From positions 288,001 to 352,000 of the forward strand of contig CP060223.1 in NCBI GenBank assembly GCA_023898465.1: a DNA stretch of 64,000 nt, in the 5' to 3' direction. Source of the stretch: Candidatus Nomurabacteria bacterium. GTDB lineage: Bacteria > Patescibacteriota > Patescibacteriia > HK-STAS-PATE-3. Made by a program: the position numbers and the translations under genes. Of the stretch, positions 5,382 through 21,745 are shown piece by piece. Position 1 is the first letter of the stretch, and the number at the start of each line of letters is the position of its first letter. Under the pieces are notes generated by a model that saw nothing but the letters and a program-made list of their open reading frames with translations, searched no databases and had not been told where the DNA came from.

Positions 5382-5456
5382 GGCCCTATCGTCTAGTGGC
5401 TAGGACGCATGGTTCTCATCCATGTAACAGGGGTTCGATTCCCCTTAGGGCTACCA
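5382..5456 (+). tRNA. tRNA-Glu (anticodon CTC), CCA encoded
   Basis: Cloverleaf folded by hand: acceptor GGCCCTA/TAGGGCT, D-arm GTCTAGTGGCTAGGAC (near-identical to E. coli tRNA-Glu), anticodon stem CATGG/CCATG with loop TTCTCAT, T-arm AGGGGTTCGATTCCCCT, discriminator A, CCA. Confidence 0.9.
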
Positions 5457-5612
5457 GCCCGCTTAGCGGGCTCTGCTGATAAGGATAGAAGAAAGTAAAA
5501 GTGGAATGTTTAGCATGTTGTTTTATAAGTTAAGGAATCGAACGGGCGAGGACGTCTGCCAGCGGCAGGCGACCGCAAGCCCCGGCCTGAAGTCCCGATA
5601 GGGACGGAATGG

Positions 5613-5634
5613 TCGATTCCCCTTAGGGCTACCA
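5613..5634 (+). repeat. 22-bp direct repeat identical to the tRNA-Glu 3' end (TCGATTCCCCTTAGGGCTACCA); att-like remnant
   Basis: Exact 22-nt match to 5435-5456, located 157 bp downstream of the complete tRNA. Confidence 0.8.
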
Positions 5635-5927
5635 CGGGCCATTGCGCCGTGCGGACTGCGTCCGACCAGGTCGGACTCCGCCCTTACGGCGCATGTCCCT
5701 TTCCCCATTGCAAACAGTCCCTCTCGGCAGCCTCGAGGTCCTTGGTTTGCAACGGGGGCCCCGATAAGAGTGCGGGCCCAAGTGCTCGGCATTACAAAGC
5801 GTCCCAGAAAAAATGCCAGACACAAGTCTTCGGCATTTAATGAGAAGAAGACGTAGGTCAACTTCAGAGTGAGTCACCACAAACATCGTCGCTGCGCTAG
5901 AGGCAGCATAATTCAGGAGGAAAAAAT

Positions 5928-7666: not shown

Positions 7667-10600
7667 ATGGACTCTGCCCCATTAACACTACAAACGAAGA
7701 CACTGCAGAGGTCTTCCGATCTAAATAATTACAGACTCTATCGCGCAGCTCTTGAATGGGAGTTGATTGATCCTATTGTCATAGAAGACCGGGATGACAT
7801 GCATTCCGAAAGTAGTTGGCGTGATCGTCTTGAGCCGTATCATCATCAAGTAACTAACCTAATAACTTTTTGTCGTCGCCTACCTGTTACTTTACTGGCG
7901 GATGATGTCGGGTTAGGAAAAACAATTAGTGCTGGCCTAGTTTTAAGCGAGTTAATTTCGCGCGGGAGAATTTCAAAAATATTAATAGTTTGCCCAAAAA
8001 TACTTCGAGATCAGTGGAAAGAAGAATTGGAAATAAAGTTCCGAATTCCGTCCACAATTGTGACAGGAAGAGAATTAATTACGGCAAAGCCTCCTGAAGA
8101 ACCAGGAGCGGTAATTACCACATACAATACGGCCAGACTGTATTTAGATAGAATTGACCAGAATGGTTTTGAAATATTGATACTTGATGAGGCGCATAAA
8201 TTGCGGAATCTATATGGTGTTGACCCAACACCTCAAGTTGCAATTAAATTCCGTAAAGCTCTGGCTGACCGGATGTTTAAGTACGTATTAATGTTAACTG
8301 CAACGCCGATCCAGAACAGACTATGGGATCTCTACTCGTTGGTTGACTTATTAACCGTTGCACGCGGCCATGAAAATCCCTTTGGAACGCCAGGTATTTT
8401 TGCGAGAAAATTTATTGCAGATAGTCGCACACAAGCGCGTCAGCTTAATCCGGAGATGCGGGATGAGTTTCGCTCAATTATTTACGGTTATATGTCTCGG
8501 GTTCGTCGTGGAGATGCAAAACTCCACTTCCCAGAGCGGGTAGTACAGTTGCATAAAGTTGACCCAACACCAGAAGAATTGCAGTTGATCGGTGTGGTCG
8601 GAAAATCTATACAACAACTGAATGCGCTTACACAAATTGTAATCCTCCAAGCTTTGGTGAGTAGTCCAGAAGCGCTAATAAAGATGTTAGAAGGAATGGC
8701 TAAAAAAGGAACCGTACCGCGTGAGGTGTTGGCGAACGTTAAGGAATCAGCCAAAGAAATTCAAATCACTACAAAACTAAAAGGTTTGGGCGCGTTAGTT
8801 GAAAAACTTAGAAAGGAGCAACCCAATACTTGGCGGGTGGTAGTTTTTACAAGATGGCGAGAAACTCAAACAACTATCGAAACTTTTCTTGAAAAGCAAG
8901 GAGTAAAATGCGGCTTGATAAATGGCGATTCAAGTAAGCGAAATCAGGAAACAATCCAAAGATTTAAAAAAGACTTACCAGACATTAATGTAATTATTTC
9001 TACTGAAGCAGGTTCGGAGGGCGTTAACCTTCAGGCCGCTAATGTTTTGGTTAATTACGATCTCCCCTGGAATCCAATGATAGTGGAACAAAGAATAGGT
9101 CGTATTCAAAGACTTGCTTCTAATTATGCAAATGTTTCTATTTTTAATATTGTTTTGCAAAATACCTTTGAAGAATATATTGTAGGGCGCTTGATGGAAA
9201 AGTTGCAGATGGCTTCTCATGCAATTGGGGATATTGAAGCACTATTGGAAGCATCCGGCATTGATGAAGGTGAAGAAAATGGCTCAAGTGGTTTTGAAGA
9301 AAAAATTCGCCAGTTAGTAGTTGCATCTTTAGCTGGAAAAGATGTTGAGCAGGCAACTCGTAAAGCTGAACAGAGTATTTCAGAAGCTAAAACAGAATTA
9401 GACCATGAAGAAAAGAACATTAATGCTTTACTTGGGGGGATGAGTGATTCTCTAGATTCTGGTCCAAGATGTCCGAAGCTTCCTCAAACTACTAAGTCGA
9501 TGGATGTCCGTGATTTTACTACGGCTGCTCTTATGAGCTTAGGCGCGGAACTACATCCAAAAAAGGATGGTTTATTAGTTTCACAACTTGCTGGGAAAAA
9601 AGAATTAATCCGATTTGATAATAACACTCTGAGCAGTGAAGAGGAGAGTGTCTTATATGCACCGGGAACTTCAACTTTTGAACGCTTAGTCCATAAAGTT
9701 GCAAATGTAGGAAAACACATTGTTGAAGACCTTGATAAAAACCCCCAACAGCAAATTGAGAAAGTAAGTCGTCAATGGGTCGAAAGTTTTGGCGGAGACT
9801 TCGAAAATGTAACGGTAGAGGACGTTTCTCGATGTTTTGCAGGAGTAGCAATAATTCGTGCAAGATCAACAGTAGCTCACGATAGTTATGAGCGTCTCAT
9901 TGAGGTTTCGTGCGCTCCCACTGAGCATTTCAGTTTTGTGACAAGAACGGGATTGGAACCCATCGGAGACTATATTGAAAATCCGACATCTGTTGGTGCG
10001 CTTTCAGAAAAATTAATTGAAAAAGCCAGCCAAGACTCGAGTATTCTTGAGTTCTGTAGATTTTATTTAGAACGAAGATCTCAAGAAATTGCCTCCGCAG
10101 GAAATGACGAAAGAAAAAAGAAAAAGCTTGAGGATGAGTTTACGCCCCGTCTTGAATTTTCCCTAGTCGGTCTTGAGGGCAAGGTTCATCGGATAGTTAA
10201 AAATCAGGTCTCTTATAGAATTGAACGTGAGGGCCAATACAAAAGTACCCTCATGATAACCCCCTCTTCTGGGCAAGTTGATATGCCGGGGATGGGACAA
10301 TGCATGAAAACAGGTAAGACTGTACCGAGCGATTGCTTAGCAAAGTGCGAAATAAGCGGACTTATAGTATTGCGGCATTTTCTTGATCAATCAGAGATCA
10401 GTAATCGACTGGCGCTCCCTGAGCACATCGTTTTATGTACGTTAAGCAACAAGCGAGTGCTAGCGGACGAAGCTATAAAATCAGATGTTACGGGCAAACT
10501 AGTCGCAAAGAAGTTTTTAAAAACATCTTCTCTGAGTGGCAAATTCGCTGAACCACAGTTCATTAACACTTGTGAGTTTACAAAAACAGAAGTTCTGGAA

Positions 10601-11194
10601 AGCGAAATTGCGGTCAGCCAGATTTCAGGAAAAAGATATCGCATTGATGAGCAACTTAAATCCGCAGTTTCAGGAAAACTAGGCCATCGACAAGAATTTG
10701 TAGCAAGTAGTATTTCATCAGCCCCACTTCTTGAAGAAGAAGCCATTCGTTCGGTCACTGGAAAATTTTGTGCACCAATGGAAGCGAGGCCCTGCACTTG
10801 GAGTGGTCGAAAGTGTCACCCCGAAGACCTTAGGACTTGCGAGTTGACCGGAGTCCAAATTCATTCAGAGTACGTAACGCTCGAACCACCAATTCGTTTA
10901 GAAACCCTAAATAATCTTTTGAATGGCACGAGGAGCAAATCTGACAAATTGGAAGTATGGCCTTCACTTTCAAATAGCGTTACAGCTTTATTAAAAGCAA
11001 AACGTTGTAAAATTGAAACAGCAGAAGTTTCACCTAGTGACGATATTTTGGCCGCTTCTATAGAGCTTCGAACTTTTCTAGGCCTGCGCGTGAGTCACAT
11101 TGGCGTACTTTATTCAATAAAGGATGGATCCGTAGTCGGGCGTGTTGCTAGAGGCAAGCGTGGTGATAAGGGCTGGAATCAAACTAAGAACTAA
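7667..11194 (+). CDS. SNF2-family DEAD-like helicase (1175 aa) with a long uncharacterised C-terminal extension containing 15-aa tandem repeats
   Basis: Motif I ADDVGLGKT, motif II LILDEAHKLRN, motif III LTATPIQN, helicase-C STEAGSEGVNLQ and motif VI DLPWNPMIVEQRIGRIQR. About 600 aa after the helicase core have no recognised domain. Low-GC region. Confidence 0.85.
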   Translation: MDSAPLTLQTKTLQRSSDLNNYRLYRAALEWELIDPIVIEDRDDMHSESSWRDRLEPYHHQVTNLITFCRRLPVTLLADDVGLGKTISAGLVLSELISRGRISKILIVCPKILRDQWKEELEIKFRIPSTIVTGRELITAKPPEEPGAVITTYNTARLYLDRIDQNGFEILILDEAHKLRNLYGVDPTPQVAIKFRKALADRMFKYVLMLTATPIQNRLWDLYSLVDLLTVARGHENPFGTPGIFARKFIADSRTQARQLNPEMRDEFRSIIYGYMSRVRRGDAKLHFPERVVQLHKVDPTPEELQLIGVVGKSIQQLNALTQIVILQALVSSPEALIKMLEGMAKKGTVPREVLANVKESAKEIQITTKLKGLGALVEKLRKEQPNTWRVVVFTRWRETQTTIETFLEKQGVKCGLINGDSSKRNQETIQRFKKDLPDINVIISTEAGSEGVNLQAANVLVNYDLPWNPMIVEQRIGRIQRLASNYANVSIFNIVLQNTFEEYIVGRLMEKLQMASHAIGDIEALLEASGIDEGEENGSSGFEEKIRQLVVASLAGKDVEQATRKAEQSISEAKTELDHEEKNINALLGGMSDSLDSGPRCPKLPQTTKSMDVRDFTTAALMSLGAELHPKKDGLLVSQLAGKKELIRFDNNTLSSEEESVLYAPGTSTFERLVHKVANVGKHIVEDLDKNPQQQIEKVSRQWVESFGGDFENVTVEDVSRCFAGVAIIRARSTVAHDSYERLIEVSCAPTEHFSFVTRTGLEPIGDYIENPTSVGALSEKLIEKASQDSSILEFCRFYLERRSQEIASAGNDERKKKKLEDEFTPRLEFSLVGLEGKVHRIVKNQVSYRIEREGQYKSTLMITPSSGQVDMPGMGQCMKTGKTVPSDCLAKCEISGLIVLRHFLDQSEISNRLALPEHIVLCTLSNKRVLADEAIKSDVTGKLVAKKFLKTSSLSGKFAEPQFINTCEFTKTEVLESEIAVSQISGKRYRIDEQLKSAVSGKLGHRQEFVASSISSAPLLEEEAIRSVTGKFCAPMEARPCTWSGRKCHPEDLRTCELTGVQIHSEYVTLEPPIRLETLNNLLNGTRSKSDKLEVWPSLSNSVTALLKAKRCKIETAEVSPSDDILAASIELRTFLGLRVSHIGVLYSIKDGSVVGRVARGKRGDKGWNQTKN
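10301..10893 (+). repeat. about 12 tandem degenerate 15-codon repeats encoding [CS]-x-h-[ST]-G-[KR]-x8 within the helicase C-terminal region
   Basis: Protein-level periodicity: CEISG, CTLSNK, SDVTGK, SSLSGK, CEFTKT, SQISGK, SAVSGK, SSISSA, SVTGK, CTWSGR, CELTGV at 15-residue spacing. Confidence 0.7.
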
Positions 11195-11195
11195 T

Positions 11196-12686
11196 ATGAA
11201 CCCTCTACTTACAAAAACCGATTATCTTCTTTACCGGGAATGCCCAAAGAATGTTTGGTATAAAATCCAAAAACCTGAATTGTATGCTACATCGGAGCTA
11301 ACAGAGTTTGAAAAATCGATAATGGAAACAGGTAATGAGGTTGAAAAGATTGCAAGGCAACTTTTTCCAAACGGGGTGTTAGTAACTTATCGTGATGCGC
11401 GCGGTCAAGCTGAGACACAAAAGCTATTGGCGGAGAACAAGGATGTGATTTTTCAGCCAGTTTTTGTCAAAAATAACTTTTTGGCTGCTATTGATGTTCT
11501 ACAAAAAGAAAAGAATGGCAAGGGCTACAATGTTTACGAAATAAAATCGACTAGTGATGTAGATAAGAAAACACATTTTCACGACCTAGCATTTCAAGTA
11601 AACGTTCTCAGAATGACAGGCCTGGGAATTAATAAATCATTTGTCATTCATCTAAACTCTGAATATATTCGAAAGGGAGAAATTGAGCTGGATCAGTTAT
11701 TTAAAGTATCAGATGTGACGGATGAAGTAGAAAGTCTTTTACCGGATGTTGCGACTGAGGCGGAAGAAGCATTGAAGTATATTAGCCAAACTTCTGAACC
11801 AGAGGGGTACTGCTGCTGTATTTATAAAGGTCGATCAAGGCATTGTTCAACCTTTCAGCTAGCGAACCCCGAAGTACCCGAATATAGTGTCCACGATATT
11901 TCTAGGATAGGGGTAAGCAAGGCTAAATTAAAAGAGCTAATTGACGGAAGTATTTTTCACCTGGACAAGATTCCGCCACACATTAAATTAAGCGAAATTC
12001 AACAAGGTCAAGTTGAAACCTATAAATTGAATAAGGTATTAGTAGATAAGGAAAGAATTGCGGAAGAATTTAGTGGTCTCACATTCCCACTTTATTTTCT
12101 TGATTATGAAACATTTCCATCAGCAATACCAAGATATGATGGCTTTTCACCATATAAACAAATTCCGTTCCAGTATTCTGTTTACAAACTAGATTCAGTC
12201 GAGAGTGAGCCAACTCATTTTGATTTTTTGTACTCTGGTCCCGAAGACCCCAGCAAGCACTTTGCCGAGTCTTTAAGGGAACATATCGGGGATAAAGGCT
12301 CGATCATCGTTTGGCATAAAGACTTCGAGTGTGGCAGAAATAATGAAATAGGTAGTCGAATTCCTACTTCGAAGGCTTTTTTTGACTCTGTTAATCAGCG
12401 AGTATACGATCTCGAAGACATTTTCAAGAAACAATACCACGTTCATCGAGATTATAAGGGAAGCACATCTATTAAAAACGTATTGCCTGTTTTAGTGCCA
12501 GAATTAACGTATAAAGACCTTGAAATTCGTGATGGTGGCAGTGCAGCGGATAGTTGGGACAAAATAATTAGTGGTGTATATAACGAGACAGAGAAAGAAA
12601 AGGTAATAAAAGATTTAAAGATTTATTGTGGTCTTGATACATTTGCAATGTATGCTATTTGGAATTGCTTGAACAAGCTACTCTAA
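11196..12686 (+). CDS. Cas4/RecB-like PD-(D/E)xK nuclease with Cys cluster fused to a DEDD-like 3'-5' exonuclease domain (DUF2779-like architecture)
   Basis: N-terminal Cys (YRECPKN), D...EIK nuclease motifs, QxxxY-like motif, CCC-x8-C cluster, then FLDYETF (Exo I-like DxE) and YDLEDIF...H motifs. Start is 1 nt after the helicase stop, so translationally coupled. Confidence 0.6.
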   Translation: MNPLLTKTDYLLYRECPKNVWYKIQKPELYATSELTEFEKSIMETGNEVEKIARQLFPNGVLVTYRDARGQAETQKLLAENKDVIFQPVFVKNNFLAAIDVLQKEKNGKGYNVYEIKSTSDVDKKTHFHDLAFQVNVLRMTGLGINKSFVIHLNSEYIRKGEIELDQLFKVSDVTDEVESLLPDVATEAEEALKYISQTSEPEGYCCCIYKGRSRHCSTFQLANPEVPEYSVHDISRIGVSKAKLKELIDGSIFHLDKIPPHIKLSEIQQGQVETYKLNKVLVDKERIAEEFSGLTFPLYFLDYETFPSAIPRYDGFSPYKQIPFQYSVYKLDSVESEPTHFDFLYSGPEDPSKHFAESLREHIGDKGSIIVWHKDFECGRNNEIGSRIPTSKAFFDSVNQRVYDLEDIFKKQYHVHRDYKGSTSIKNVLPVLVPELTYKDLEIRDGGSAADSWDKIISGVYNETEKEKVIKDLKIYCGLDTFAMYAIWNCLNKLL

Positions 12687-12690
12687 ACCT

Positions 12691-13392
12691 ATGAGCTTTC
12701 TTAAGATTTTTAGTGATGATTCTAAAGACAAGCCAAAAGAAAATGATAGTCGGAAACCTGAATGTCCATACTGTCAGGGCGTTTTAGTTAAAATTCCTGC
12801 TAGAAAAACAAAATGTTTTCACTGTGGGAAATATATTTTTGTACGAACACAGACAAAGGACAGAAAGCTCGTTTTGGTTACTGAAGAAAATTCGGCCGCG
12901 ATAGACTCTGAATGGGAGTCAAAACAAGCCGCTACGATCACTTCATTGGTGGAGAAAGTAGATTTTACAAAGAAAAAAGAAGGTCTGCGCGAAGGGTTTG
13001 GGGACAAGGAACCCTCCGTTAGTGACATAAAGTGGGGCTTGTGGAACAAGAGGCTTCAGGAAGCAATGAAACGCAATGATTTTTCAGAACTTTCAGGAAT
13101 ATATTTTCAAATGGCTCTGCGCTTGCACGAAAGTGGAAAAGACAGCTTTAAACTTCAGGGCCAGGCTCAAAAAATGTTTTTGTTTAAAGAAAAGCAAAGC
13201 GGTGTTGTTTCTAGCGTAGAGGTTTTTTCTAGAGATGGCTGTGAAGAATGTAAGAAAATAAACGGAAAGAAATTTGTTATTTTTGAAGCACTAAAACTCA
13301 TGCCACTACCCGTTCAATCCTGCACAAACAAACTGAATAAGAATGCGCCCAATGGTTGGTGTCGATGCACTTTTCTTCCTTTTATAGATTAA
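12691..13392 (+). CDS. double zinc-ribbon protein (hypothetical)
   Basis: N-terminal CPYC-x18-CFHC and C-terminal CEEC...C-x3-C...CRC motifs. Begins 4 nt after the nuclease stop. Confidence 0.5.
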   Translation: MSFLKIFSDDSKDKPKENDSRKPECPYCQGVLVKIPARKTKCFHCGKYIFVRTQTKDRKLVLVTEENSAAIDSEWESKQAATITSLVEKVDFTKKKEGLREGFGDKEPSVSDIKWGLWNKRLQEAMKRNDFSELSGIYFQMALRLHESGKDSFKLQGQAQKMFLFKEKQSGVVSSVEVFSRDGCEECKKINGKKFVIFEALKLMPLPVQSCTNKLNKNAPNGWCRCTFLPFID

Positions 13393-13545
13393 GACTTTGC
13401 CACCAATACTTTTGTTTCGGTCGCTGAGCATCCACCCTTTTTATCCCCCTCTGCCGATCTTCTAAAAAGAAACGGGAATTTAATCACGTAAAAAATAAAG
13501 AGGACCCATTATAACCCCTTGCCTCCGTCATTCGCGAACGACGGG

Positions 13546-13574
13546 GTTGACAGGGCTTTTTTGTTATACTATTC
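13546..13574 (+). promoter_or_regulatory. sigma70-like promoter of the hrcA operon (TTGACA-17-TATTCT)
   Basis: Consensus -35 hexamer, 17-nt spacer, reasonable -10, immediately upstream of CIRCE. Confidence 0.55.
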
Positions 13575-13579
13575 TTGTT

Positions 13580-13606
13580 TTAGCACTCAAATATTGAGAG
13601 TGCTAA
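13580..13606 (+). promoter_or_regulatory. CIRCE operator (TTAGCACTC-N9-GAGTGCTAA), HrcA binding site
   Basis: Perfect 9-9-9 inverted repeat matching the CIRCE consensus, 10 nt upstream of hrcA. Confidence 0.9.
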
Positions 13607-13615
13607 TTCAAGCCC

Positions 13616-14341
13616 ATGAAGCTCTCAGAACGACAACAACACATATTACAGGCCGTGATTCAAGAACACCTGGTGCAGGGGAAGCCGGTTGGTTCGCAGC
13701 AACTGGTGACGGCCGGTGGATTCGACGTGTCGAGCGCGACTATGCGCAATGAAATGGCTGAATTAGAGGAAAAGGGCTTTTTAACGCATCCCCACACCTC
13801 AGCCGGTCGGATTCCGACGGAGCAGGGTTGGCGCTACTACCTCGACCATATCATTGAAAAAAAAGAGCTAAGTAAAAAGGAAGAAAGCTATCTGCAGCAG
13901 CAAGTGAAAAGCAGCGAGCCAGCTGGTCCGCAAAAAGTGAAAACCTTAGCCAAAGCACTGGCTGAGCTGTCAGAAGAAGCCATCATGATCGGTTTCGCGC
14001 CAAATGATGTGTACTACACCGGCTTGCGTAACCTTTTCTCTAAACCGGAATTCCAGGATTTTGCCGTGGTGACGCAGTTGTCTGAAGTGATTGACCATTT
14101 GGACGAGGCCTTGTCTCGCTTATTTCTACGAAAAGAAAAGTCCCAGCAGGATGTAACAGTATTAGTGGGACAGGAGCATCCTTTTGGCGCTGACTGCAGT
14201 GTCATTATGACGCAGATTCCGGTGGCCAAGGGGAATGCGACCGGTATACTCGGTATCCTGGGCCCGATGCGGCAGCAATATGCAGACAACATTGCTCGAT
14301 TAGATTATTCTCGTCATTTACTTACTGAATTATTTTCCTAA
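13616..14341 (+). CDS. hrcA: heat-inducible transcription repressor HrcA
   Basis: N-terminal winged helix (ILQAVIQEHL...PVGSQQL) and context: CIRCE upstream, grpE-dnaK downstream. Confidence 0.8.
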   Translation: MKLSERQQHILQAVIQEHLVQGKPVGSQQLVTAGGFDVSSATMRNEMAELEEKGFLTHPHTSAGRIPTEQGWRYYLDHIIEKKELSKKEESYLQQQVKSSEPAGPQKVKTLAKALAELSEEAIMIGFAPNDVYYTGLRNLFSKPEFQDFAVVTQLSEVIDHLDEALSRLFLRKEKSQQDVTVLVGQEHPFGADCSVIMTQIPVAKGNATGILGILGPMRQQYADNIARLDYSRHLLTELFS

Positions 14342-14344
14342 AGC

Positions 14345-14848
14345 ATGAGCACGAACGAAAACGAAGTCCAAGAAGACACTTCACCTGAAATGAGCACCCT
14401 GCAAAAGAAGGCGGAAGAGTACCTAGCCGGCTGGCAGCGCGCCAAGGCAGACTATCAAAACCTGAAGCGTCAGAATGAAAAAGAGCGCGAAGAGCTCATG
14501 AGTATGACCACTGGTGCGCTCATCCTCGACCTCCTGCCCGTGAAAACCAACTTTGACCTAGCCTGGCAACATCTGCCAGAGGATCTGAAAGACCACGCCT
14601 GGGTAAAGGGCATGGAACACGTGCAAAAGCAGTTTACCGAATTTTTACAAACCCTGGGTATTAGTTCCTATCAACCATCACATGAAGCCTTTGACCCCAG
14701 TAGCATGGAAGCGATCGAGCACACGGCTGACGCAGAAGTGCCCGAGGGTCAGGTGATCCGCACCACTGAGCCAGGCTATCGGATGCGCGACAAAGTCATC
14801 CGTCCGGCCAAAGTGGTGGTCAGCTCAGGTCCTAGTCAAGAATCGTAA
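14345..14848 (+). CDS. grpE: nucleotide exchange factor GrpE
   Basis: Size, coiled-coil N-terminus, AGWQRAKADYQN motif, position between hrcA and dnaK. Confidence 0.8.
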   Translation: MSTNENEVQEDTSPEMSTLQKKAEEYLAGWQRAKADYQNLKRQNEKEREELMSMTTGALILDLLPVKTNFDLAWQHLPEDLKDHAWVKGMEHVQKQFTEFLQTLGISSYQPSHEAFDPSSMEAIEHTADAEVPEGQVIRTTEPGYRMRDKVIRPAKVVVSSGPSQES

Positions 14849-14883
14849 TCTTCTCTCAACATTAACCCTTAAGGAGAAACACT

Positions 14884-15294
14884 ATGGCAATTATCAAATG
14901 GAGTCCTTTTGCAGACATGCTTGGCGAAGATTTCTTCGAAGACATGCCGCTGGCTCGTAATTATCGCTTTGTCCCGGCCCTCGACATTTATGAGGATAAG
15001 GACAACATCGTAGTAGAAACCCCACTCTCGGGCATTGATCCAAACAAAGTAAATATTGAGATCGAGGACAACATCCTCAAAATCTCTGGATCAACCGAAA
15101 AGAAATCCGAAGTGGATGAAAAAAACTACTACCGCAAAGAAGTCCGCAGTGGACAATTCTTCCGCTCGGTTGCCCTGCCAAAAGCAGTGGATGCAGATAA
15201 GGCTGATGCGCAATATCACGACGGTATCCTGAAAATCACCGTGCCAAAGCGCGAAGAAGCCAAGCCAAAGACTATTTCCGTTCAAGTAAAGTAA
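14884..15294 (+). CDS. Hsp20/alpha-crystallin small heat-shock protein
   Basis: Alpha-crystallin domain pattern (PALDIYEDKDNIVVETPLSGIDPNKVNIEIEDNILKISG). AGGAG RBS. Confidence 0.8.
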   Translation: MAIIKWSPFADMLGEDFFEDMPLARNYRFVPALDIYEDKDNIVVETPLSGIDPNKVNIEIEDNILKISGSTEKKSEVDEKNYYRKEVRSGQFFRSVALPKAVDADKADAQYHDGILKITVPKREEAKPKTISVQVK

Positions 15295-15358
15295 ATTCGC
15301 CGTTTGAGCAGCCCCGCCTACGCTAAAAGCTTTGGCGGGGAACTGAGACGAGGAACCT

Positions 15359-15715
15359 ATGTCACAACAACGTATACCAGCCCCGCAATTTAATAACCCG
15401 CTCCTGCGGATGAATGGTCGCTGTCCGGTCTGCAATAGTTTGTACGACGTTCAGCAGCTGCGCATCCTGGCTGAAAAAGAGCAGTCTATCCTGGCGCACC
15501 TCGAGTGCAGCAACTGCTCAACCGCGGTGCTGTCTTATCTGCAGTTGAGCGGCATGGGCTTATCCAATCACGCATTGATTACGGATTTAACTCCGGATGA
15601 GGTGCACGATCGGATGGGAAGCTCGCCGCCTATTTCCAGCGATGACATCATTCTCTTCCACAGCTATCTGGAGAATGAGGTCAAGGCGACTGATCTCTAC
15701 AGTGAAGATAGCTAA
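15359..15715 (+). CDS. hypothetical zinc-ribbon protein within the heat-shock operon
   Basis: CPVC...CSNC motif. No other similarity recognised. Confidence 0.4.
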   Translation: MSQQRIPAPQFNNPLLRMNGRCPVCNSLYDVQQLRILAEKEQSILAHLECSNCSTAVLSYLQLSGMGLSNHALITDLTPDEVHDRMGSSPPISSDDIILFHSYLENEVKATDLYSEDS

Positions 15716-15751
15716 CACTTATTTGTAAATCTCTTTAATCTCAACACACCT

Positions 15752-17686
15752 ATGGCAAAAATTCTCGGAATCGATCTCGGTACGACCAACTCAGCAATGG
15801 CTGTAGTGGAGGGTGGTGAACCGAAAATCATTGAAAACAACGAAGGCAATCGCACGACACCTTCTATGGTGGCGATGGCCAAAAACGGCGAGCGCTTAGC
15901 TGGACAGCTGGCCAAGCGACAAGCGGTTACCAATCCAGAAAACACAATTTTCTCGGTCAAGCGTTTAATTGGACGCCACTGGGATGATGCAGAAGTGCAG
16001 CGTGATGTAAAAACCATGCCCTACAAGATTACTCAGGGCGGTGAAGGCGTGAAAGTGAAGCTGGGTGATAAGGAATACACCCCGCAGGAAATTTCCGCCA
16101 TGATCCTGCAGAAGTTAAAGGCAGACGCTGAGGAGCGCTTGGGCGAAAAAATCACTGAAGCGGTCATTACGGTTCCAGCCTACTTTGATGACAGTCAGCG
16201 CCAAGCTACCAAAGACGCGGGTCGCATTGCCGGCTTTGACGTGAAGCGCATTATTAACGAGCCAACTGCTGCAGCCTTGGCCTATGGCTTTAACAAGAAA
16301 AAGGATGAGAAGATCGCCGTGTATGACCTTGGCGGCGGTACTTTTGACATCTCTATTCTCGAAGTGTCAGCTGACACGGTGGAAGTGAAATCCACCAATG
16401 GTGACACGCACTTGGGCGGTGATGACTTTGACCAAGTGATTATTCACTGGATCATTGATGAGTTTAAGAAACTGGAAGGCATTGATCTGTCTAAGGACAC
16501 CCAAGCGCTCCAACGCTTAAAGGATTCAGCAGAAAAAGCCAAGCATGAGCTTTCCACTGCTATGGAAACAGAAATCAGTCAGCCTTTCATCACCACTGAT
16601 GCCAGCGGTCCAAAGCACTTGAGCTTGAAATTGACCCGGGCCAAACTCGAAGGCCTGGTAGGCGAGCTGGTTGAAAAAACCCTGGTGCCGGTCAAGCAGG
16701 CGCTGAAGGATGCCGGCCTAGAAGCCAGCGATATCAATGAAGTCATTATGGTTGGTGGACAGACACGCATGCCTTTGGTGCAAAAAACCGTTGAGCAATT
16801 CTTTGGCAAGAAACCACACCTGGGCGTGAACCCTGACGAAGTGGTCGCCCTCGGTGCTGCAGTGCAGGCCGGCGTGCTCCAAGGTGATGTGAAAGACGTG
16901 CTGCTACTCGACGTCACACCTTTGACCCTTGGCTTAGAAACCCTGGGCGGTGTAGCGACTCCTTTAATCGAGCGTAACACGACTGTGCCGACCTCGAAGT
17001 CGCAAACCTTCTCCACCGCAGCTGATAATCAGACCTCAGTGGAAATCCATGTGCTGCAGGGTGAGCGACCAATGGCCAGCGATAACAAGACCTTAGGCAA
17101 ATTTATCCTCTCTGGTATTCCACCAGCTCCTCGAGGTGTGCCGCAGGTTGAAGTGACCTTTGATATTGACGCCAATGGTATCCTGAACGTGAAGGCAAAA
17201 GATAAGGCCTCGGGCAAAGAGCAGTCGATTACCATTACTGCTTCCACGCAGCTCTCCAAAGATGAAATTGAGCGCATGCGTACCGAAGCTGAGTCACATG
17301 CGGAAGAGGATAAGAAAAAGCGCGAGTCAATTGAGCTGAAGAACCAGGCTGAAACCCTTATCTACACGGCTGAGAAAGCGCTCAAAGACGCTGGCGATAA
17401 AGTTACTGATGATGTGAAAAAAGAAGTGCAAGAGAAGATTGATGCCCTGAAGAAGGCGCAAGAAAGTGATGACGCCGCGCAAATCCAGCCAGCCCTTGAT
17501 GTGCTCAATCAAAGCATGCAAAAAATCGGCCAAGCCATGTACGGCCAGCAGCAGCCAGGTCAGCCCGGCGCTGAACAAGCTGGTCAAGATGCTGGAGCAG
17601 CCGGTCAGGCCTCTGAAGAACCCAAAACTGATAACGCCAAAGATAGCGATACGGTAGAGGGGAACTACGAGGAAGTAAAAAAATAA
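15752..17686 (+). CDS. dnaK: molecular chaperone DnaK (Hsp70)
   Basis: [17 protein letters not shown] and other Hsp70 signatures, 644 aa. Confidence 0.95.
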
Positions 17687-17755
17687 GCGCACTAACCCCG
17701 CCGTGTCTGCAAAGGCACGGCGGGATCGCAAATAATCTTCATAACTAGGAATACT

Positions 17756-18085
17756 ATGGCCAACAATTACAATATGCCCCCACAACAACAACGCCCGCAG
17801 ATTCAGATTAAGATTGCTGATGAGCAATTAAAAGGTGCTTACACCAACTCGGTGGCAGTTTTTCACTCCAAAGAGGAGTTTGTGCTTGATTTCATGAACG
17901 TGTATCCACCGCAAGGCATGGGCACGGTTGTCAGTCGCGTGATCACCAGCCCGGGACACATGAAGCGCCTCCTGGCAGCTCTGCAGGACAATATTGCCAA
18001 ATATGAGAAGCAACATGGTAAAATAGAAGAGGCAAAAACGCCTGACGCATCATTTGGCTTTAATACCGAAGAAAAGGATAAATAA
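17756..18085 (+). CDS. DUF3467-like protein
   Basis: YTNSVAVFHSKEEFVLDF motif characteristic of DUF3467. Located between dnaK and dnaJ. Confidence 0.5.
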   Translation: MANNYNMPPQQQRPQIQIKIADEQLKGAYTNSVAVFHSKEEFVLDFMNVYPPQGMGTVVSRVITSPGHMKRLLAALQDNIAKYEKQHGKIEEAKTPDASFGFNTEEKDK

Positions 18086-18337
18086 ATGGAAGAAGATAGT
18101 GAAAATAAATTAGTAAGCTGGAAAATAAAATTTATTTTTGGAGCCGTGATCGTGTCACTTTTTGCGGTTGAGGTAGGTGCTTTGTATGAACATGCGCCGA
18201 TGAATGATCATACAGGACCATGTAAGGTTATTGATTGCCATCAGGATCATACTGAAGAGTCTATATTTAACGGGGCAGTAAGTGGTATTTCTCCGTCAGG
18301 AACCATGGATTATACTGACCTTAACATTCCAAGCTAG
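18086..18337 (+). CDS. hypothetical small membrane protein
   Basis: 83-aa ORF with one TM segment. Start is adjacent to the previous stop. Confidence 0.35.
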   Translation: MEEDSENKLVSWKIKFIFGAVIVSLFAVEVGALYEHAPMNDHTGPCKVIDCHQDHTEESIFNGAVSGISPSGTMDYTDLNIPS

Positions 18338-18351
18338 TAGTTATAGTTATT

Positions 18352-19419
18352 ATGGCCTCGAAGCAAAACAAAAAAAAGAAAGAAGAGCCAGTCGCGCCTT
18401 TGCAATACCATCAGCGTAATCGTTTGATAGGGATATACGCCTTTGCGATTCTTGCTTGGGCAGGCTTTTGGTGGCTCATCCGGACGGCCTTTGCTGCAGA
18501 GATGCTACTTAGCGCAGAAACGCTTTGGCTCGTCAGTGGTGCTTTTGTGCTGTTTGGGCTTTCCCTTGGACTCTTTGGCTTGATGGCGGCAGTTGTTCGC
18601 ATACCGCGTTGGGGCGTTCTCTATGCCGCCGGAGCTGGGCTATTGCCGATCGCGTTTTTCCCTTTGAACCTTTTTACTTTGGCCGGAGCTTTACTGCTCA
18701 TGGCAGTGTGGTTTCGCTATTGGGCCATGGTAACGGAGGAGTCTGAGCATCGCATTCGCTTCAATCTAGTAAAAAGTGTTACCCACGGACTTGGTACGAT
18801 AATTTACCTGACCGTATTAAGTGTGGCCGTGTTTTATCTGGCCGTGACCAGTCAGTCGAATCAAACAAGCACGACATTTATTGATAACGTAACAAACTCC
18901 GCCTCTGATGCCGTCTTAGCAGTGCTGGATAATCAGCTGCCGGAATTTGATGCACAAATGACTTTGGATGCATTTATTACGCAGTATAGCGACCAGGATA
19001 TCACCGCCCTTTTACCTGAAAACTTTTTACCGGAAGACGTAAATAAATCCTTATTGGAAGAAAACACGCAGCAGAATATTGAAAACCTGGACGAAACCGC
19101 GCGGCAAGCAGCTATTGAAGAAGCGCGTACGCAGTTATTGCAAGCCTTGAATATTCACGCTGAGGGTAGTGACAGTATGGAAACGGTGGTGCGTCGCTTA
19201 GTGGAAGATAAACTGCAGCCGTTACTTGAGCGTTATGATACTGTTATCCCGCCAGTGCTCGCCTTAGCACTTTTCTCAGTCCTTTCCATCCTGGGCCTGG
19301 TGTATTTCTGGTGGATCGTGTTGTGGGCTTTCATTTGCTATGGTATCCTGCGAATTCTTCGCTGGGTGGAATTTGTTGAACATACGCAGACCGTCACCCG
19401 CGCGGAAATAAAGAACTGA
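18352..19419 (+). CDS. hypothetical polytopic membrane protein
   Basis: 355 aa with multiple hydrophobic helices and an acidic central region. Confidence 0.5.
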
Positions 19420-19423
19420 AGCT

Positions 19424-20530
19424 ATGGCTAGAGATTATTACGAAATCCTCGGCGTCAGCCGCAACGCCTCGCAGGATGATATTAAAAAAGCATATCGCAA
19501 ATTAGCGCATCAACACCACCCAGATAAAAAGGGCGGGGATGAGGCAAAGTTTAAAGAGGTAAACGAGGCCTACCAGGTATTAGGCAACGCGGACAAACGG
19601 GCCAAGTACGATCAATTTGGCAGTGCTGTGTTCCAAGGTGGCGGAGCAGGCCCGGGCGGCGCCCAGTGGTCTGATTTCGCGCGCGGTGGTGGTTTCGGCG
19701 GCGGACAAGCCTATGGCAATGTTGATTTTGGTGACCTGGGAGATATTTTTGGCGACATTTTTGGTTTTGGTGGGCAGCGAGGCGGCCGCGGGAGTCGTCA
19801 GCAGCGCGGGAATGACGTGGAAACTGAAGTCCATATCTCCTTGAAAGACGCTGCTTTTGGTGTAAGTAAGTCTTTAGAGCTGACACAAGATTTGCCTTGC
19901 AGCACCTGTAAAGGAAACGGCGCTAAGCCAGGCTCAAAAGTGGATACCTGCTCGACCTGCGGAGGCAGCGGGCAAGTCGCTCAAGTGCGTAACACCTTAT
20001 TCGGTGCTATGCAGACCGTGGGTGCCTGTCCAAATTGCCAGGGCGAGGGGACTATCGTGAAAGAAGCCTGTACCACCTGCCGAGGCAGTGGAGTTGAGCG
20101 ACGGAAGCGCACACTAAAAGTACAGATCCCGGCCGGAATCGCTGATGGGCAGAGTATACGTTTGAACGGCGAAGGACAGGCAGGCAAGCGGGGAGTCGCA
20201 CCTGGAGATTTATATGTCCGAGTACGCGTTGATATGGATGCGAGTTTCGAGCGACAAGGCGATGATCTCTACATGCGCGTTCCCGTGTCGGTTTCCCAAG
20301 CTGCCTTAGGCGATAGCATTCAGATTGCCACCATCGATGGAGAAGTGAAGCTTGATATCCCGTCCGGTACGCAGCCAAATAGCAAGATACGCCTGAAGGG
20401 TAAGGGTATGACTCATCTGCGCTCCCGCGGCCGCGGCGATCTTTACGTTGTGGTGAAAGTGGAGATTCCAAAGAAGCTGAGCAAGGAAGCGAAAAAGGCG
20501 CTGGAGGTGTTGCGCGGCGAGGGGGTTTAG
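19424..20530 (+). CDS. dnaJ: chaperone DnaJ
   Basis: J-domain (YYEILGV...HPDKK), Gly/Phe-rich linker, four CxxCxGxG zinc-finger repeats. Confidence 0.9.
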
Positions 20531-20537
20531 TTTCATA

Positions 20538-20569
20538 GACAAGGCGTCCCGGCCTTGTCGTAGTTTTTT
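20538..20569 (+). terminator. rho-independent terminator after dnaJ
   Basis: GACAAGGC-loop-GCCTTGTC 8-bp stem followed by TAGTTTTTTG. Confidence 0.6.
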
Positions 20570-20757
20570 GTTATTCCATCCCGCCCTCACCGTGTTGTTA
20601 TAAGTAACTGCTCAAAGTACCACCTTTGAGCAGTAGTAGCGCTCCTCCCTGAACGTGGTAGTTCATGGAGTTGGGTAGTTCTTGCGTGAAGGTATGCGCT
20701 CTGCTACCATACGGGCGTTTTCACGTTCCTTAGGAGTGAATCAAGAGGAGGGAGCAC

Positions 20758-21081
20758 ATGTCCTGCACTTTTACCTTTCCCGTACCCAAGGGCGTCACGG
20801 AGTTTCGGATCACCACACCCAATTCTGAGAAACTGGCCGGCACCGGACCTCGCTGGGTGGAGGTCAAGGAAGGCTGGACCAGATCCTACAAGCCGATCGA
20901 GGGTGGGCCTGGTACCATCAGAGTGACCAAGGTTGGTCAGGTGCGAGGCGGACACCGTATGGTGACCGTCGAGCTGGTCGACATGACCGCCACCTACGAG
21001 GCGGTGCTGCACTGCAAGCCGGCACCGAGCCAGGCAGTGCAGGAGGCCAGACAGGAGGTCCCGGTCGCCCAAGCATCCTAG
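20758..21081 (+). CDS. GC-rich small protein (107 aa), probably horizontally acquired
   Basis: About 62% GC with strong GC3 bias in a ~47% GC genome. GGAGGG RBS and its own downstream terminator. Confidence 0.5.
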   Translation: MSCTFTFPVPKGVTEFRITTPNSEKLAGTGPRWVEVKEGWTRSYKPIEGGPGTIRVTKVGQVRGGHRMVTVELVDMTATYEAVLHCKPAPSQAVQEARQEVPVAQAS

Positions 21082-21103
21082 CTTCTCGACGCGCATAGTC
21101 CAC

Positions 21104-21137
21104 AACGGCCTAGTATTGCACTGGGCCGTTTTCTTTT
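21104..21137 (+). terminator. rho-independent terminator after the GC-rich ORF
   Basis: AACGGCC-loop-GGCCGTT stem followed by TTCTTTT. Confidence 0.55.
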
Positions 21138-21199
21138 ACGCGTTCATTGCAGCAGATTCGCGATTGTGGTATAATGCAAATAGATAAACACATACACAC

Positions 21200-21745
21200 A
21201 TGGGGGAAGCACAACAATTTGTCGCAAATATTGACTGGGCCACGCCTACTTGGGATTTATTCATCATCCTCTTCTTTGTGGTGGCTGGTTTGCTCTATGG
21301 TTTGAGTCTTGGTCGCGATCGCATTGTGGTTATCTTGGTGTCGATTTATATGGCTATGGCAGTGGCAACTACCGCGCCCTATATTGGCGAGTTAAATGCG
21401 CAAATCGGCATTCAGAATGTGTTTGTGTTCCAAATCTCCGCCTTCCTCGTTGCCTTTATTGCGCTTTTTCTGCTCTTGTCGCGCTCAGCCTTGCTCAAAA
21501 CAATTGCTGTTGGTGATGCGCAAGGCAGCTGGTGGCAGGTGCTGGTCTTCAGCATTCTCCATGTTGGCTTATTGGTGAGCATTACTTTGTCCTTTTTGCC
21601 GCCTGAAGCAGCTGAGGGTCTGTCACCACTCACACGTCAAATGTTTGCCTCCGAGGGCGCTCGCTTTGGCTGGATTATTGCGCCGATTATCTTAATGGTG
21701 CTCTTGCGCACGGATAACAAAAAGAAGTTTAAGTACGATATGTAG
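21200..21745 (+). CDS. CvpA-like small membrane protein (hypothetical)
   Basis: 181 aa with four predicted TM helices. Size and topology resemble the CvpA family. Confidence 0.35.
   Translation: MGEAQQFVANIDWATPTWDLFIILFFVVAGLLYGLSLGRDRIVVILVSIYMAMAVATTAPYIGELNAQIGIQNVFVFQISAFLVAFIALFLLLSRSALLKTIAVGDAQGSWWQVLVFSILHVGLLVSITLSFLPPEAAEGLSPLTRQMFASEGARFGWIIAPIILMVLLRTDNKKKFKYDM

What the first reader, a model, noticed from the sequence alone, without database searches (positions are those of the whole stretch)
20580..21137. High-GC, GC3-biased small gene cassette (107 aa) with its own RBS and terminator, likely from a high-GC donor
The ORF 20758-21081 is about 62% GC with G/C at most third codon positions, while surrounding genes are ~45-50% GC. 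It has a strong GGAGGG RBS (many native genes here lack an obvious Shine-Dalgarno) and a clean intrinsic terminator at 21104-21137. The product (MSCTFTFPVPKGVTEFRITTP...) has no recognised family. It may be a compact acquired cassette. The donor could be a high-GC lineage such as Actinobacteria, which would be notable if this organism is an epibiont of such hosts.
Basis: partly seen in the sequence, partly recalled or inferred. Interest (0 to 1): 0.55.

Follow-up and report, generated by a model that had tools for sequence, protein, structure and literature searches.

The report
GC-rich orphan small-protein gene
This is a real 107-amino-acid gene from a tiny, uncharacterised protein family found so far only in Patescibacteria, and its high GC content is a built-in trait of that family in every host, not a sign of import from a high-GC donor such as Actinobacteria.

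Summary
ORF 20758-21081 is 62% GC (GC3 0.75) in a 47% GC Ca. Nomurabacteria genome. It is the GC-richest 324 nt of the window, and none of 13,130 host 107-codon windows reaches its GC3. It has a perfect Shine-Dalgarno in a genome that rarely uses one, and its own terminator.

It is a genuine protein gene (dN/dS 0.12-0.19 against its closest homolog). About 13 relatives exist among ~15 billion proteins. The named ones are Patescibacteria and none comes from a high-GC taxon. There is no match in Pfam, NCBIfam, PHROGs, PADLOC, Rfam or the PDB. The AlphaFold model (pLDDT 83) is a six-stranded all-beta fold with no structural neighbour.

In all 12 family loci the gene is 9-20 GC points above its host. 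Gene GC tracks host GC (r=0.92). The excess stops at the CDS boundaries and persists across about one synonymous substitution per site in vertically inherited Komeilibacteria copies.

So GC-richness is a family trait, not a donor footprint. The gene does look like a lineage-specific insertion into the conserved dnaJ/membrane-protein junction. Its function, and the cause of the synonymous GC excess, remain unknown.

The parts
20538..20559 (+). Intrinsic terminator of dnaJ (8-bp stem plus T-run). It marks the upstream limit of the unit and the end of the heat-shock operon.
   Evidence: the dnaJ ORF is 19424-20530
20560..20757 (+). 198-nt upstream region (promoter and/or leader) with host-like composition. 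In the predicted fold CCCGCCCUC (20580-20588) pairs with the Shine-Dalgarno. This region is not conserved in other family loci.
   Evidence: fold z = -2.75; 5' flank GC 0.50; no shared upstream motif beyond shuffles; no similarity to L001 upstream
20607..20634 (.). Perfect 11-bp inverted repeat with a 6-nt spacer (ACTGCTCAAAG-TACCAC-CTTTGAGCAGT). It occurs once in the window and is not CIRCE. Its role is unknown; it could be an operator or an RNA hairpin.
20682..20710 (+). Weak candidate sigma-70 promoter, TTGCGT-17 nt-TACCAT, read by eye. It falls below the scanner's threshold. It would give a 5'UTR of about 45-50 nt, similar to other family loci.
   Evidence: sequence; not reported; sense-strand TTGACA promoter-like sites at comparable distance in L091, L095 and L096
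20746..20752 (+). Shine-Dalgarno AGGAGGG, 6 nt after the AGGAGG core to the ATG.
   Evidence: SD rarity in this genome; strong SDs in all family members
20758..21081 (+). Coding sequence of the 107-aa orphan protein (NCBI H6760_01485). The predicted fold is six beta-strands with a disordered C-terminal tail. Invariant residues are P10, G30, G39, G49-G50-P51, V56 and C86.
   Evidence: (dN/dS 0.12-0.19; differences by codon position 27/19/53)
21104..21130 (+). Intrinsic terminator of the gene (11-bp stem, 6 G-C pairs, 5-nt loop, then TTCTTTT).
21147..21175 (+). Probable promoter of the downstream conserved 181-aa membrane-protein gene (TTGCAG-17 nt-TATAAT preceded by TGg), read by eye. It marks the downstream limit of the inserted unit.
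   Evidence: sequence; not reported by the scanner because the -35 matches only 3 of 6; the p181 gene at 21200-21745 is conserved next to dnaJ in relatives

Best explanation
SHOWN
- ORF 20758-21081 is a genuine, selectively constrained protein-coding gene.
- It belongs to a very small, undescribed protein family of 87-107 aa, seen so far only on Patescibacteria-type contigs (Nomurabacteria, Komeilibacteria, unclassified marine and groundwater Patescibacteria).
- It is a monocistronic unit: a strong SD and its own terminator, preceded by the dnaJ terminator.
- It sits inside the otherwise conserved dnaJ -> 181-aa membrane-protein junction at the end of a CIRCE/HrcA heat-shock operon.
- Its GC-richness is a property of the family's coding sequence. 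About half comes from a Gly/Pro/Ala/Arg/Val/Thr-rich amino-acid composition. About half is a synonymous GC3 excess.
- The excess recurs in every host, tracks host GC with a constant offset of about +14 points, stops at the start and stop codons, and survives about one synonymous substitution per site of vertical descent.

INFERRED
- The excess is maintained by a constraint acting on the coding sequence itself. It is not a fading imprint of a foreign donor.
- The copy here entered the junction in the ancestry of this lineage, most likely from another Patescibacterium or by relocation within the genome.
- The product is a soluble (no signal peptide or TM segment) six-stranded beta protein, probably made in quantity given the consensus-like expression signals.
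- Its one chemically reactive conserved residue is a Cys at or near the C-terminus. It may act with a small membrane partner in some lineages.
- The biochemical function is unknown.
For: Coding:
- Against the closest homolog (57% identity) dN/dS is 0.19 overall and 0.12 in the core, with differences by codon position 27/19/53. Other family pairs give 0.16-0.43.
- There is no Rfam hit, no excess RNA structure in the CDS (z = -1.4), and no conserved structure or covariation in the family alignment.

Family:
- The exhaustive scan gave 12 hits. Profile searches added a few more.
- Named sources are Patescibacteria and Komeilibacteria.

GC is a family trait:
- Gene GC versus rest of contig in the six loci.620/.472.565/.471.500/.382.469/.341.544/.391.610/.505. 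The remaining loci give +14 to +20 points.
- r = 0.92, p = 1.3e-4, offset +0.139 +/- 0.027.
- Synonymous resampling gives z = 5.5, 5.4, 2.2, 4.0 and 3.5 in five hosts.
- Mean offsets from host GC are 5' flank -0.076, CDS +0.138 and 3' flank +0.048. GC3 is lowest in the first third of the CDS in most loci.

Stable residence:
- In Komeilibacteria the gene sits between def and an 86-aa gene on 24 or more contigs from many samples. It is GC 0.495 / GC3 0.49, while all neighbours are 0.33-0.36 / 0.27-0.34.
- The syntenic trio L008/L091/L093 keeps GC3 at 0.41-0.58 against 0.23-0.33 in the flanks, at dS of about 1.

Insertion:
- dnaJ and p181 are directly adjacent in many Patescibacteria, including close relatives L011 and L015. 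L012 and L013 carry unrelated ORFs in the same gap.
- The same strain carries the gene at 99.96-100% identity in three other samples.

Expression signals:
-.

Structure:
- pLDDT 82.8, six strands.
Against: - The cause of the synonymous GC excess is not established. Ordinary expression-linked codon bias looks too weak in this phylum: dnaK exceeds its neighbours by only +0.016 GC3 in 50 loci, against +0.14 to +0.28 for this gene.
- In the syntenic trio the gene's tree conflicts with that of its flanks (Fisher p = 0.0016). Allele exchange therefore occurs, or the short contigs are chimeric. Repeated replacement, or recombination-linked biased gene conversion, could contribute to the excess.
- The nearest genomes available share only 50-57% DnaJ identity. 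The timing and direction of the insertion are therefore unresolved.
- No clear promoter is found in the window copy.
- No expression data were available.
- Function rests on weak context only. Neighbours differ between lineages: dnaJ here, def/fmt in Komeilibacteria, and a 54-57-aa TM protein in two loci.
Confidence: 0.7

Rival explanations
1. The unit was recently imported, with its RBS and terminator, from a high-GC donor such as Actinobacteria and has not yet ameliorated.
For: It is an extreme compositional outlier. It is an extra gene in a conserved junction. It has its own SD and terminator.
Against: - No homolog from any high-GC taxon among ~15 billion proteins, nor in phage or plasmid records.
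- All 12 homologous loci lie on 29-50% GC contigs, and each shows the same positive offset.
- Gene GC tracks host GC, r = 0.92.
- The flanks that carry the expression signals are host-like or more AT-rich.
- The excess persists at dS of about 1 in vertically inherited copies. A simple two-state amelioration model would then need an impossible ancestral GC3 above 1 (inference).
- The closest homolog is only 57% identical and synonymous sites are saturated, so nothing about the copy looks recent.
Confidence: 0.04
2. The gene is a recombination hot spot. Frequent allelic exchange among related Patescibacteria, together with GC-biased gene conversion or repeated replacement from a somewhat GC-richer allele pool, keeps GC3 high. 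Selection on the coding sequence is not involved.
For: The gene tree conflicts with the flanking genes in the syntenic Komeilibacteria-like trio. For the gene, L091-L093 is 87% identical with dS 0.34. For LigB the same pair has dS 2.43, and L008-L093 is the closest pair for both flanking genes (Fisher p = 0.0016). The family's distribution is patchy. Expression-linked bias is too weak to explain the excess.
Against: The excess ends exactly at the CDS boundaries and dips in the first third of the CDS. That is expected for a translation or coding constraint, not for conversion tracts. The conflict rests on three short metagenomic contigs that could be chimeric. No polymorphism data were examined.
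Confidence: 0.15
3. The GC-rich island is a structured non-coding RNA, or the ORF is spurious. In moderate- and low-GC genomes, GC peaks are often RNA genes.
For: It is a GC peak in a 670-nt gap between genes. The upstream leader folds somewhat better than shuffles (z = -2.75).
Against: - No Rfam family at gathering or permissive thresholds.
- No tRNA or tmRNA.
- CDS fold z = -1.4.
- RNAalifold consensus -6.4 kcal/mol with zero covariation.
- Strong codon-position asymmetry and dN/dS well below 1.
- Conserved start, SD and reading frame in all members.
Confidence: 0.02
4. The real gene is the 133-aa ORF on the opposite strand (20704-21105, minus), or an overlapping antisense gene forces the high GC3.
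For: The exactly antisense frame is fully open in the window and in L091 and L093, and nearly so in L005 and L009.
Against: It is interrupted in the other five loci. The antisense translations of the two closest homologs share only a 19-residue match with score 27. That frame is open whenever the sense codons TTA, CTA and TCA are avoided, which follows automatically from high GC3.
Confidence: 0.02
5. The gene is the passenger of a small mobile element, with the flanking hairpins as element ends: an IS200/IS605-derived PATE, a MITE-like element, or an integron cassette.
For: Hairpins lie on both sides, at 20607-20634 and 21104-30. The junction is variable in relatives. A weak Y1 transposase hit lies 1 kb from the family gene in L005.
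Against: - Neither hairpin recurs in the 64 kb.
- There are no flanking direct or terminal inverted repeats.
- The upstream region is not shared with any other family locus.
- The 3' hairpin is an ordinary terminator with a T-run and, by eye, lacks attC core sites.
- There is no hit in viral contigs, phage records or plasmids.
- In Komeilibacteria the gene is a fixed chromosomal resident.
Confidence: 0.04

Closest known systems
Lineage-specific orphan (ORFan) genes inserted at variable intergenic junctions
   Same: It is a single extra gene with its own signals, sitting in a junction that is otherwise conserved (dnaJ -> p181). Relatives have either no insert or unrelated ORFs in the same gap. 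No family or function can be assigned.
   Different: Orphans and recent imports are usually AT-richer than, or similar to, their host, and they ameliorate over time. This gene is GC-richer in every host, the excess is confined to the CDS, and it appears to be maintained.
Ig-like / Calx-beta-type repeats of giant adhesins (Pfam Big_12, LapA, Calx-beta)
   Same: It is all-beta. A strand motif, (T)xxVPxGVTEFxITTP, matches repeats in three giant proteins of 3,100-5,800 aa at 42-75% identity over 16-53 residues.
DsrC/TusE-type sulfur-relay proteins (resemblance recalled from memory; a lead only)
   Same: It is a protein of about 100 aa whose one conserved reactive residue is a Cys at or next to the C-terminus. 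Many members end ...VCS...VCT or ...CKA.
   Different: DsrC/TusE are largely helical. This model is all-beta. There is no sequence or fold match, and there are no sulfur-relay neighbours.
Horizontally transferred genes recognised by atypical composition
   Same: It is a strong outlier in GC and codon usage.
   Different: No donor clade exists. The deviation is shared by all homologs relative to their own hosts, it correlates with host GC, and it does not extend into the flanks.

Membership tests
Recent horizontal acquisition from a high-GC donor | Composition deviates from the host genome | tested here: met
   GC 0.62 vs 0.47; GC3 0.75 vs 0.47; z = 5.5; 0 of 13,130 host windows reach it
Recent horizontal acquisition from a high-GC donor | Homologs exist in the proposed donor group (Actinobacteria or other high-GC taxa) | tested here: not met
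   The exhaustive phmmer scan of 1.84 billion representatives and two profile searches found only small relatives on 29-50% GC contigs, the named ones Patescibacteria. No phage or plasmid hit.
Recent horizontal acquisition from a high-GC donor | Absent from the syntenic site in relatives | tested here: met
   dnaJ and p181 are adjacent, or separated by unrelated ORFs, in relatives. These relatives are distant (50-57% DnaJ identity), so timing is unresolved.
Recent horizontal acquisition from a high-GC donor | The atypical composition covers the whole imported segment, including non-coding flanks and signals | tested here: not met
   Mean offsets from host GC: 5' flank -0.076, 3' flank +0.048, CDS +0.138. 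In the window the flanks are 0.50 and 0.525.
Recent horizontal acquisition from a high-GC donor | The deviation is specific to the recipient; homologs in other hosts do not show the same offset | tested here: not met
   12 of 12 loci show +9 to +20 points; r = 0.92 with host GC
Any Rfam RNA family / structured RNA | Covariance-model match, or conserved secondary structure with covariation | tested here: not met
Any curated protein family (Pfam, NCBIfam, PHROGs, PADLOC) | Profile match at or near the curated threshold | tested here: not met
   PDB sequence profile
Calx-beta / Big_12 Ig-like adhesin repeat | Pfam gathering-score match, or an Ig-like beta-sandwich fold match | tested here: not met
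Non-autonomous mobile element (PATE/MITE) or integron cassette | Repeated copies of the ends; terminal or subterminal repeats; attC core sites | tested here: not met
   The hairpins are unique in the 64 kb and there are no flanking repeats. attC cores were not seen by eye. The rest of the 1.08-Mb genome could not be searched.
HrcA/CIRCE heat-shock regulon member | A CIRCE operator upstream, or co-transcription with the operon | tested here: not met
   The only CIRCE is at 13580-13606, upstream of hrcA. A terminator separates dnaJ from the gene. Read-through cannot be excluded.

The most novel reading that the evidence does not exclude
The family is an undescribed, Patescibacteria-specific small beta protein with no detectable fold relative and a conserved C-terminal cysteine. 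Its coding sequence is held GC-rich at synonymous sites in every host, roughly ten-fold beyond the bias of dnaK. That would imply an unrecognised constraint on the gene's nucleic acid. One possibility is selection for a long-lived or highly translated mRNA in very AT-rich, slow-growing cells. Another is recombination-driven GC-biased conversion at a gene whose alleles are exchanged between lineages.
Probability: 0.2. Interest if true: 0.55.

Novelty: new member of a known kind. Interest (0 to 1): 0.3.

Why it matters
It is mainly a caution about method. An atypically GC-rich gene with its own signals looks like a textbook horizontal transfer. Here the same offset appears in every homolog relative to its own host and stops at the start and stop codons, so composition alone would have given the wrong history and the wrong donor.

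There are two secondary points. First, the gene defines a tiny, uncharacterised protein family that seems restricted to Patescibacteria, has consensus-like expression signals and has no recognisable fold. That makes it a reasonable candidate for an abundant lineage-specific protein in organisms where most biology is inferred from homology. Second, the maintained synonymous GC excess in hosts from 29% to 50% GC is a clean small test case for what shapes synonymous sites in reduced, AT-rich genomes: selection or biased gene conversion.

Tried and rejected
- Structured RNA hidden in the GC peak. Rfam gathering and permissive scans, ARAGORN, single-sequence folding and RNAalifold on nine family genes were all negative.
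- Antisense 133-aa ORF. It is open in only about half the family and is not conserved.
- Mobile-element ends. The two hairpins are unique in the window and there are no flanking repeats.
- Conserved upstream operator or promoter motif. The best shared 7-mer is no better than shuffles. The palindrome at 20607-20634 is not CIRCE.
- Phage, plasmid or defence origin. PHROGs, PADLOC, IMG/VR pattern scans and tblastn against phage and plasmid records were all empty.
- More family loci from JGI metagenome contigs. Two scans found none. The full 11-member alignment was too divergent to seed a scan.
- High expression as the explanation for GC3. In 50 Patescibacteria loci dnaK is only +0.016 above its neighbours, so this is insufficient on its own.
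- A GC12-GC3 coupling artefact. The gene remains 3.3 sd above the regression.
- Alpha/beta-hydrolase as a conserved partner. The two hydrolases next to family genes are barely related, 37% over 43 aa.
- Literature. Two full-text searches found nothing on this family or on GC3 bias in Patescibacteria.
- Script failures. One script timed out and two stopped on an error after partial output. Searches were rerun. The five loci that completed before stopping are used, and L001 was left untested.

Full report
**1. The observation**

The ORF lies at 20758-21081 on the plus strand and encodes 107 aa. It is 62.0% GC, with GC1/2/3 of 0.60/0.51/0.75. The window averages 47.3%, and no other ORF of 100 aa or more exceeds GC3 0.64.

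- It is the GC-richest 324-nt stretch in the 64 kb.
- None of 13,130 sliding 107-codon windows in host genes reaches its GC3; the maximum is 0.682.
- Resampling its synonymous codons from host usage predicts GC3 0.489 +/- 0.047, so z = 5.5.
- After regressing GC3 on GC12 it remains 3.3 sd high, beyond every one of 152 host blocks.

An AGGAGGG Shine-Dalgarno lies at 20746-20752, and 6 nt separate the AGGAGG core from the ATG. Only 17% of the 58 long ORFs have even a 4-mer SD core. An intrinsic terminator follows at 21104-21130.

**2. It is a protein-coding gene, not an RNA or an artefact**

Because GC peaks in gaps between genes are often RNA genes, I tested that first.

- Rfam finds only RNase P RNA and two tRNAs elsewhere in the window. 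A permissive scan of the region gives only hairpin-level noise.
- The CDS does not fold better than shuffles (z = -1.4).
- Nine family genes share no structure; the consensus is -6.4 kcal/mol with no covariation.

By contrast, the closest homolog (P0002, 57% identity) differs mainly at third codon positions (27/19/53). dN/dS is 0.19 overall and 0.12 in the core. Other family pairs give 0.16-0.43.

The fully open antisense frame (20704-21105) is a by-product of avoiding TTA, CTA and TCA. It is interrupted in half the family and is not conserved.

**3. The family**

NCBI lists the protein as hypothetical protein H6760_01485 of a Candidatus Nomurabacteria MAG, on a 1.08-Mb contig. Its lineage is Patescibacteria, Parcubacteria group. 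The same strain, gene included, is seen at 99.96-100% identity in three other samples.

- A word-indexed search of 5.8 billion clusters found one relative.
- An exhaustive phmmer scan of 1.84 billion representatives found six more small proteins, plus giant adhesin-like proteins that share only a repeated strand motif.
- Profile searches brought the total to about 13 clusters of 87-107 aa.

Invariant positions are P10, G30, G39, G49-G50-P51, V56 and C86. Most are turn residues. The Cys lies at or next to the C-terminus in most members.

Nothing matches in Pfam, PHROGs, NCBIfam, PADLOC or PDB sequences.

**4. GC-richness is a property of the family, not of a donor**

In all 12 loci I could fetch, the family gene is 9-20 GC points above the rest of its contig, in hosts from 29% to 50% GC.

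- Across ten non-redundant loci, gene GC tracks host GC: r = 0.92, p = 1.3e-4, slope 0.76, offset +13.9 +/- 2.7 points.
- Amino-acid composition explains about half of the excess. In the window, host coding GC is 0.475, the expectation from the protein sequence under host codon usage is 0.544, and the observed value is 0.626.
- The remainder is a synonymous GC3 excess that is significant in each of five testable hosts (z from 2.2 to 5.5). In the window copy it is spread over all codon classes.
- The excess is confined to the CDS. The 5' flanks are more AT-rich than the host (-7.6 points). The 3' flanks are only +4.8 points, which the terminator stems explain. GC3 is lowest in the first third of the CDS in most loci.

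In Candidatus Komeilibacteria the gene is a fixed chromosomal resident between def and a divergently transcribed 86-aa gene. It was recovered on 24 or more contigs from many samples. It is 49.5% GC with GC3 0.49, while every neighbour is 33-36% GC with GC3 0.27-0.34.

In a syntenic trio (L008, L091, L093) the excess persists at dS of about 1. Under a neutral two-state amelioration model, that much turnover would require an ancestral GC3 above 1. This is my inference from those numbers. The excess is therefore being maintained.

No homolog exists in any high-GC taxon, phage record or plasmid.

**5. What maintains the synonymous excess is unresolved**

I tested expression-linked codon bias. Across 50 Patescibacteria dnaK-dnaJ loci, dnaK exceeds its neighbours by only +0.016 GC3 (p = 0.03). 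The family gene's excess is +0.14 to +0.28. Ordinary translational selection therefore seems too weak on its own.

Two other lines of evidence point in different directions:

- Expression signals. The family genes have strong SDs in all loci and terminators in most. Several have sense-strand promoter-like sites with a perfect TTGACA, although such matches are not rare by chance in AT-rich DNA. These suggest efficient expression.
- Allele exchange. In the syntenic trio the gene's tree conflicts with both flanking genes (Fisher p = 0.0016). This points to allele exchange, and so possibly to recombination-linked GC-biased conversion. Chimeric short contigs cannot be excluded.

The sharp CDS boundaries favour a coding-level constraint. 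I rate selection on the coding sequence as more likely than biased conversion, but neither is shown.

**6. How the gene sits in this genome**

The window carries a canonical HrcA regulon. A perfect CIRCE at 13580-13606, with a TTGACA-17-TATACT promoter, precedes the operon: hrcA, grpE, an Hsp20-like gene, a Cys-rich ORF, dnaK, a DUF3467 gene, two unknown ORFs and dnaJ. A terminator follows at 20538-20559. Next come the 198-nt leader, the gene and its terminator. A probable promoter for the 181-aa membrane-protein gene follows; I read it by eye (TTGCAG-17-TGgTATAAT).

The dnaJ -> p181 adjacency is conserved in many Patescibacteria. The gaps are about 130-175 nt in the close relatives L011 and L015. 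L013 has an unrelated 151-aa ORF in the gap, and L012 has 1.5 kb of other ORFs. The MAG that yields L013 carries its own family gene on a different contig.

The junction is therefore a variable spot, and the gene here is a lineage-specific insertion. The nearest genomes share only 50-57% DnaJ identity, so its age is unknown.

There is no sign of a mobile vehicle. The hairpins are unique, there are no flanking repeats, and nothing matches in viral collections. The leader folds modestly better than chance (z = -2.75), with an upstream CCCGCCCUC pairing to the SD. This is not shared by other loci, and I give it little weight.

**7. Function**

No homology-based assignment is possible. By inspection of the sequence, the protein has no signal peptide or TM segment.

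Neighbourhoods differ between lineages. In two loci the gene is followed 8-15 nt later by a homologous 54-57-aa single-pass membrane protein. In Komeilibacteria-type loci it is paired divergently with the 86-aa gene. Neither partner has a homolog in this window.

My best guess, at low confidence, is an abundant soluble beta protein whose conserved C-terminal Cys is its functional group. The similarity to DsrC/TusE-type C-terminal-Cys carriers is only an analogy recalled from memory. It is contradicted at the fold level.

**8. Verdict**

It is a compact gene unit added at this site, but GC-richness is intrinsic to the family and there is no high-GC donor. Also, from my own knowledge, Saccharibacteria rather than Nomurabacteria are the known epibionts of Actinobacteria.

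It is an uncharacterised orphan gene with an unusual, apparently maintained compositional signature. That makes it of modest interest, with a minority chance of pointing to something new about synonymous-site evolution or an abundant Patescibacteria-specific protein.

Noticed in passing
window 7667-13392: An AT-rich block (GC 0.38-0.42, GC3 0.33-0.35, against 0.47 for the window) lies immediately upstream of the hrcA promoter. It encodes a 1175-aa SNF2-family helicase, a 514-aa DUF2779 protein and a 233-aa unknown protein. On composition it is a better candidate for a horizontally acquired, possibly defence-related island than the finding itself.
   Followed up: partly
window 13540-20560: A canonical HrcA regulon. 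A perfect CIRCE (TTAGCACTC-N9-GAGTGCTAA) lies at 13580-13606 behind a TTGACA-17-TATACT promoter. The operon then runs hrcA, grpE, an Hsp20-like gene (about 14884-15294), a Cys-rich 118-aa ORF (15359-15715), dnaK, a DUF3467 gene, an 83-aa ORF, a 355-aa membrane protein and dnaJ. This is an unusually long heat-shock operon with several unknown passengers.
   Followed up: partly
window 21200-21745, and L011-L083: The 181-aa multi-pass membrane protein downstream has no Pfam or NCBIfam match. Even so, it is conserved directly after dnaJ in many Patescibacteria lineages at 25-63% identity. It is a conserved, uncharacterised partner of the chaperone operon.
   Followed up: no
L012 5100-6650; L013 5100-5760: The dnaJ/p181 junction holds different lineage-specific inserts in close relatives. 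L013 has a 151-aa ORF. L012 has about 1.5 kb with 243-aa and 145-aa ORFs. The site looks like a recurrent insertion hot spot.
   Followed up: partly
L005 1188-1352; L009 3164-3337: A homologous 54-57-aa single-pass membrane ORF (...SDADxLxxLG..NGEA...) follows the family gene by 8-15 nt in two distantly related loci (42% identity over 31 aa, pairwise E = 4e-7). This suggests a translationally coupled two-gene module that is absent from the window.
   Followed up: partly
L008 5519-5779, L091 643-903, L093 672-932, L096 4001-4261: A conserved 86-aa basic protein of unknown function (MQQIADIFK...) is transcribed divergently from the family gene in Komeilibacteria-type genomes. Its GC is host-like (0.30-0.34) and it has no family match. 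It may be a regulator or a partner.
   Followed up: partly
L008, L091, L093 (family gene versus LigB and the 86-aa gene): The trees conflict. The family genes of L091 and L093 are 87% identical (dS 0.34) although their LigB genes have dS 2.4. For both flanking genes L008-L093 is the closest pair (Fisher p = 0.0016). This indicates either allele exchange at this gene or chimeric contigs.
   Followed up: partly
window 50618-51030: Bacterial class A RNase P RNA (164.8 bits), with a 68-nt insertion where the model has an 11-nt segment and several shortened helices.
   Followed up: no
window 5415-5900: A second local GC peak (324-nt GC of 0.58 or more) lies next to tRNA-Glu (5382-5456). It overlaps a 112-aa minus-strand ORF (5523-5861, GC3 0.62) that has no Pfam match. 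It could be another small GC-rich gene or a non-coding element.
   Followed up: no
window 20607-20634: A perfect 11-bp palindrome with a 6-nt spacer lies in the leader of the gene. It is unique in the window and unrelated to CIRCE. It could be an operator or an RNA hairpin.
   Followed up: partly
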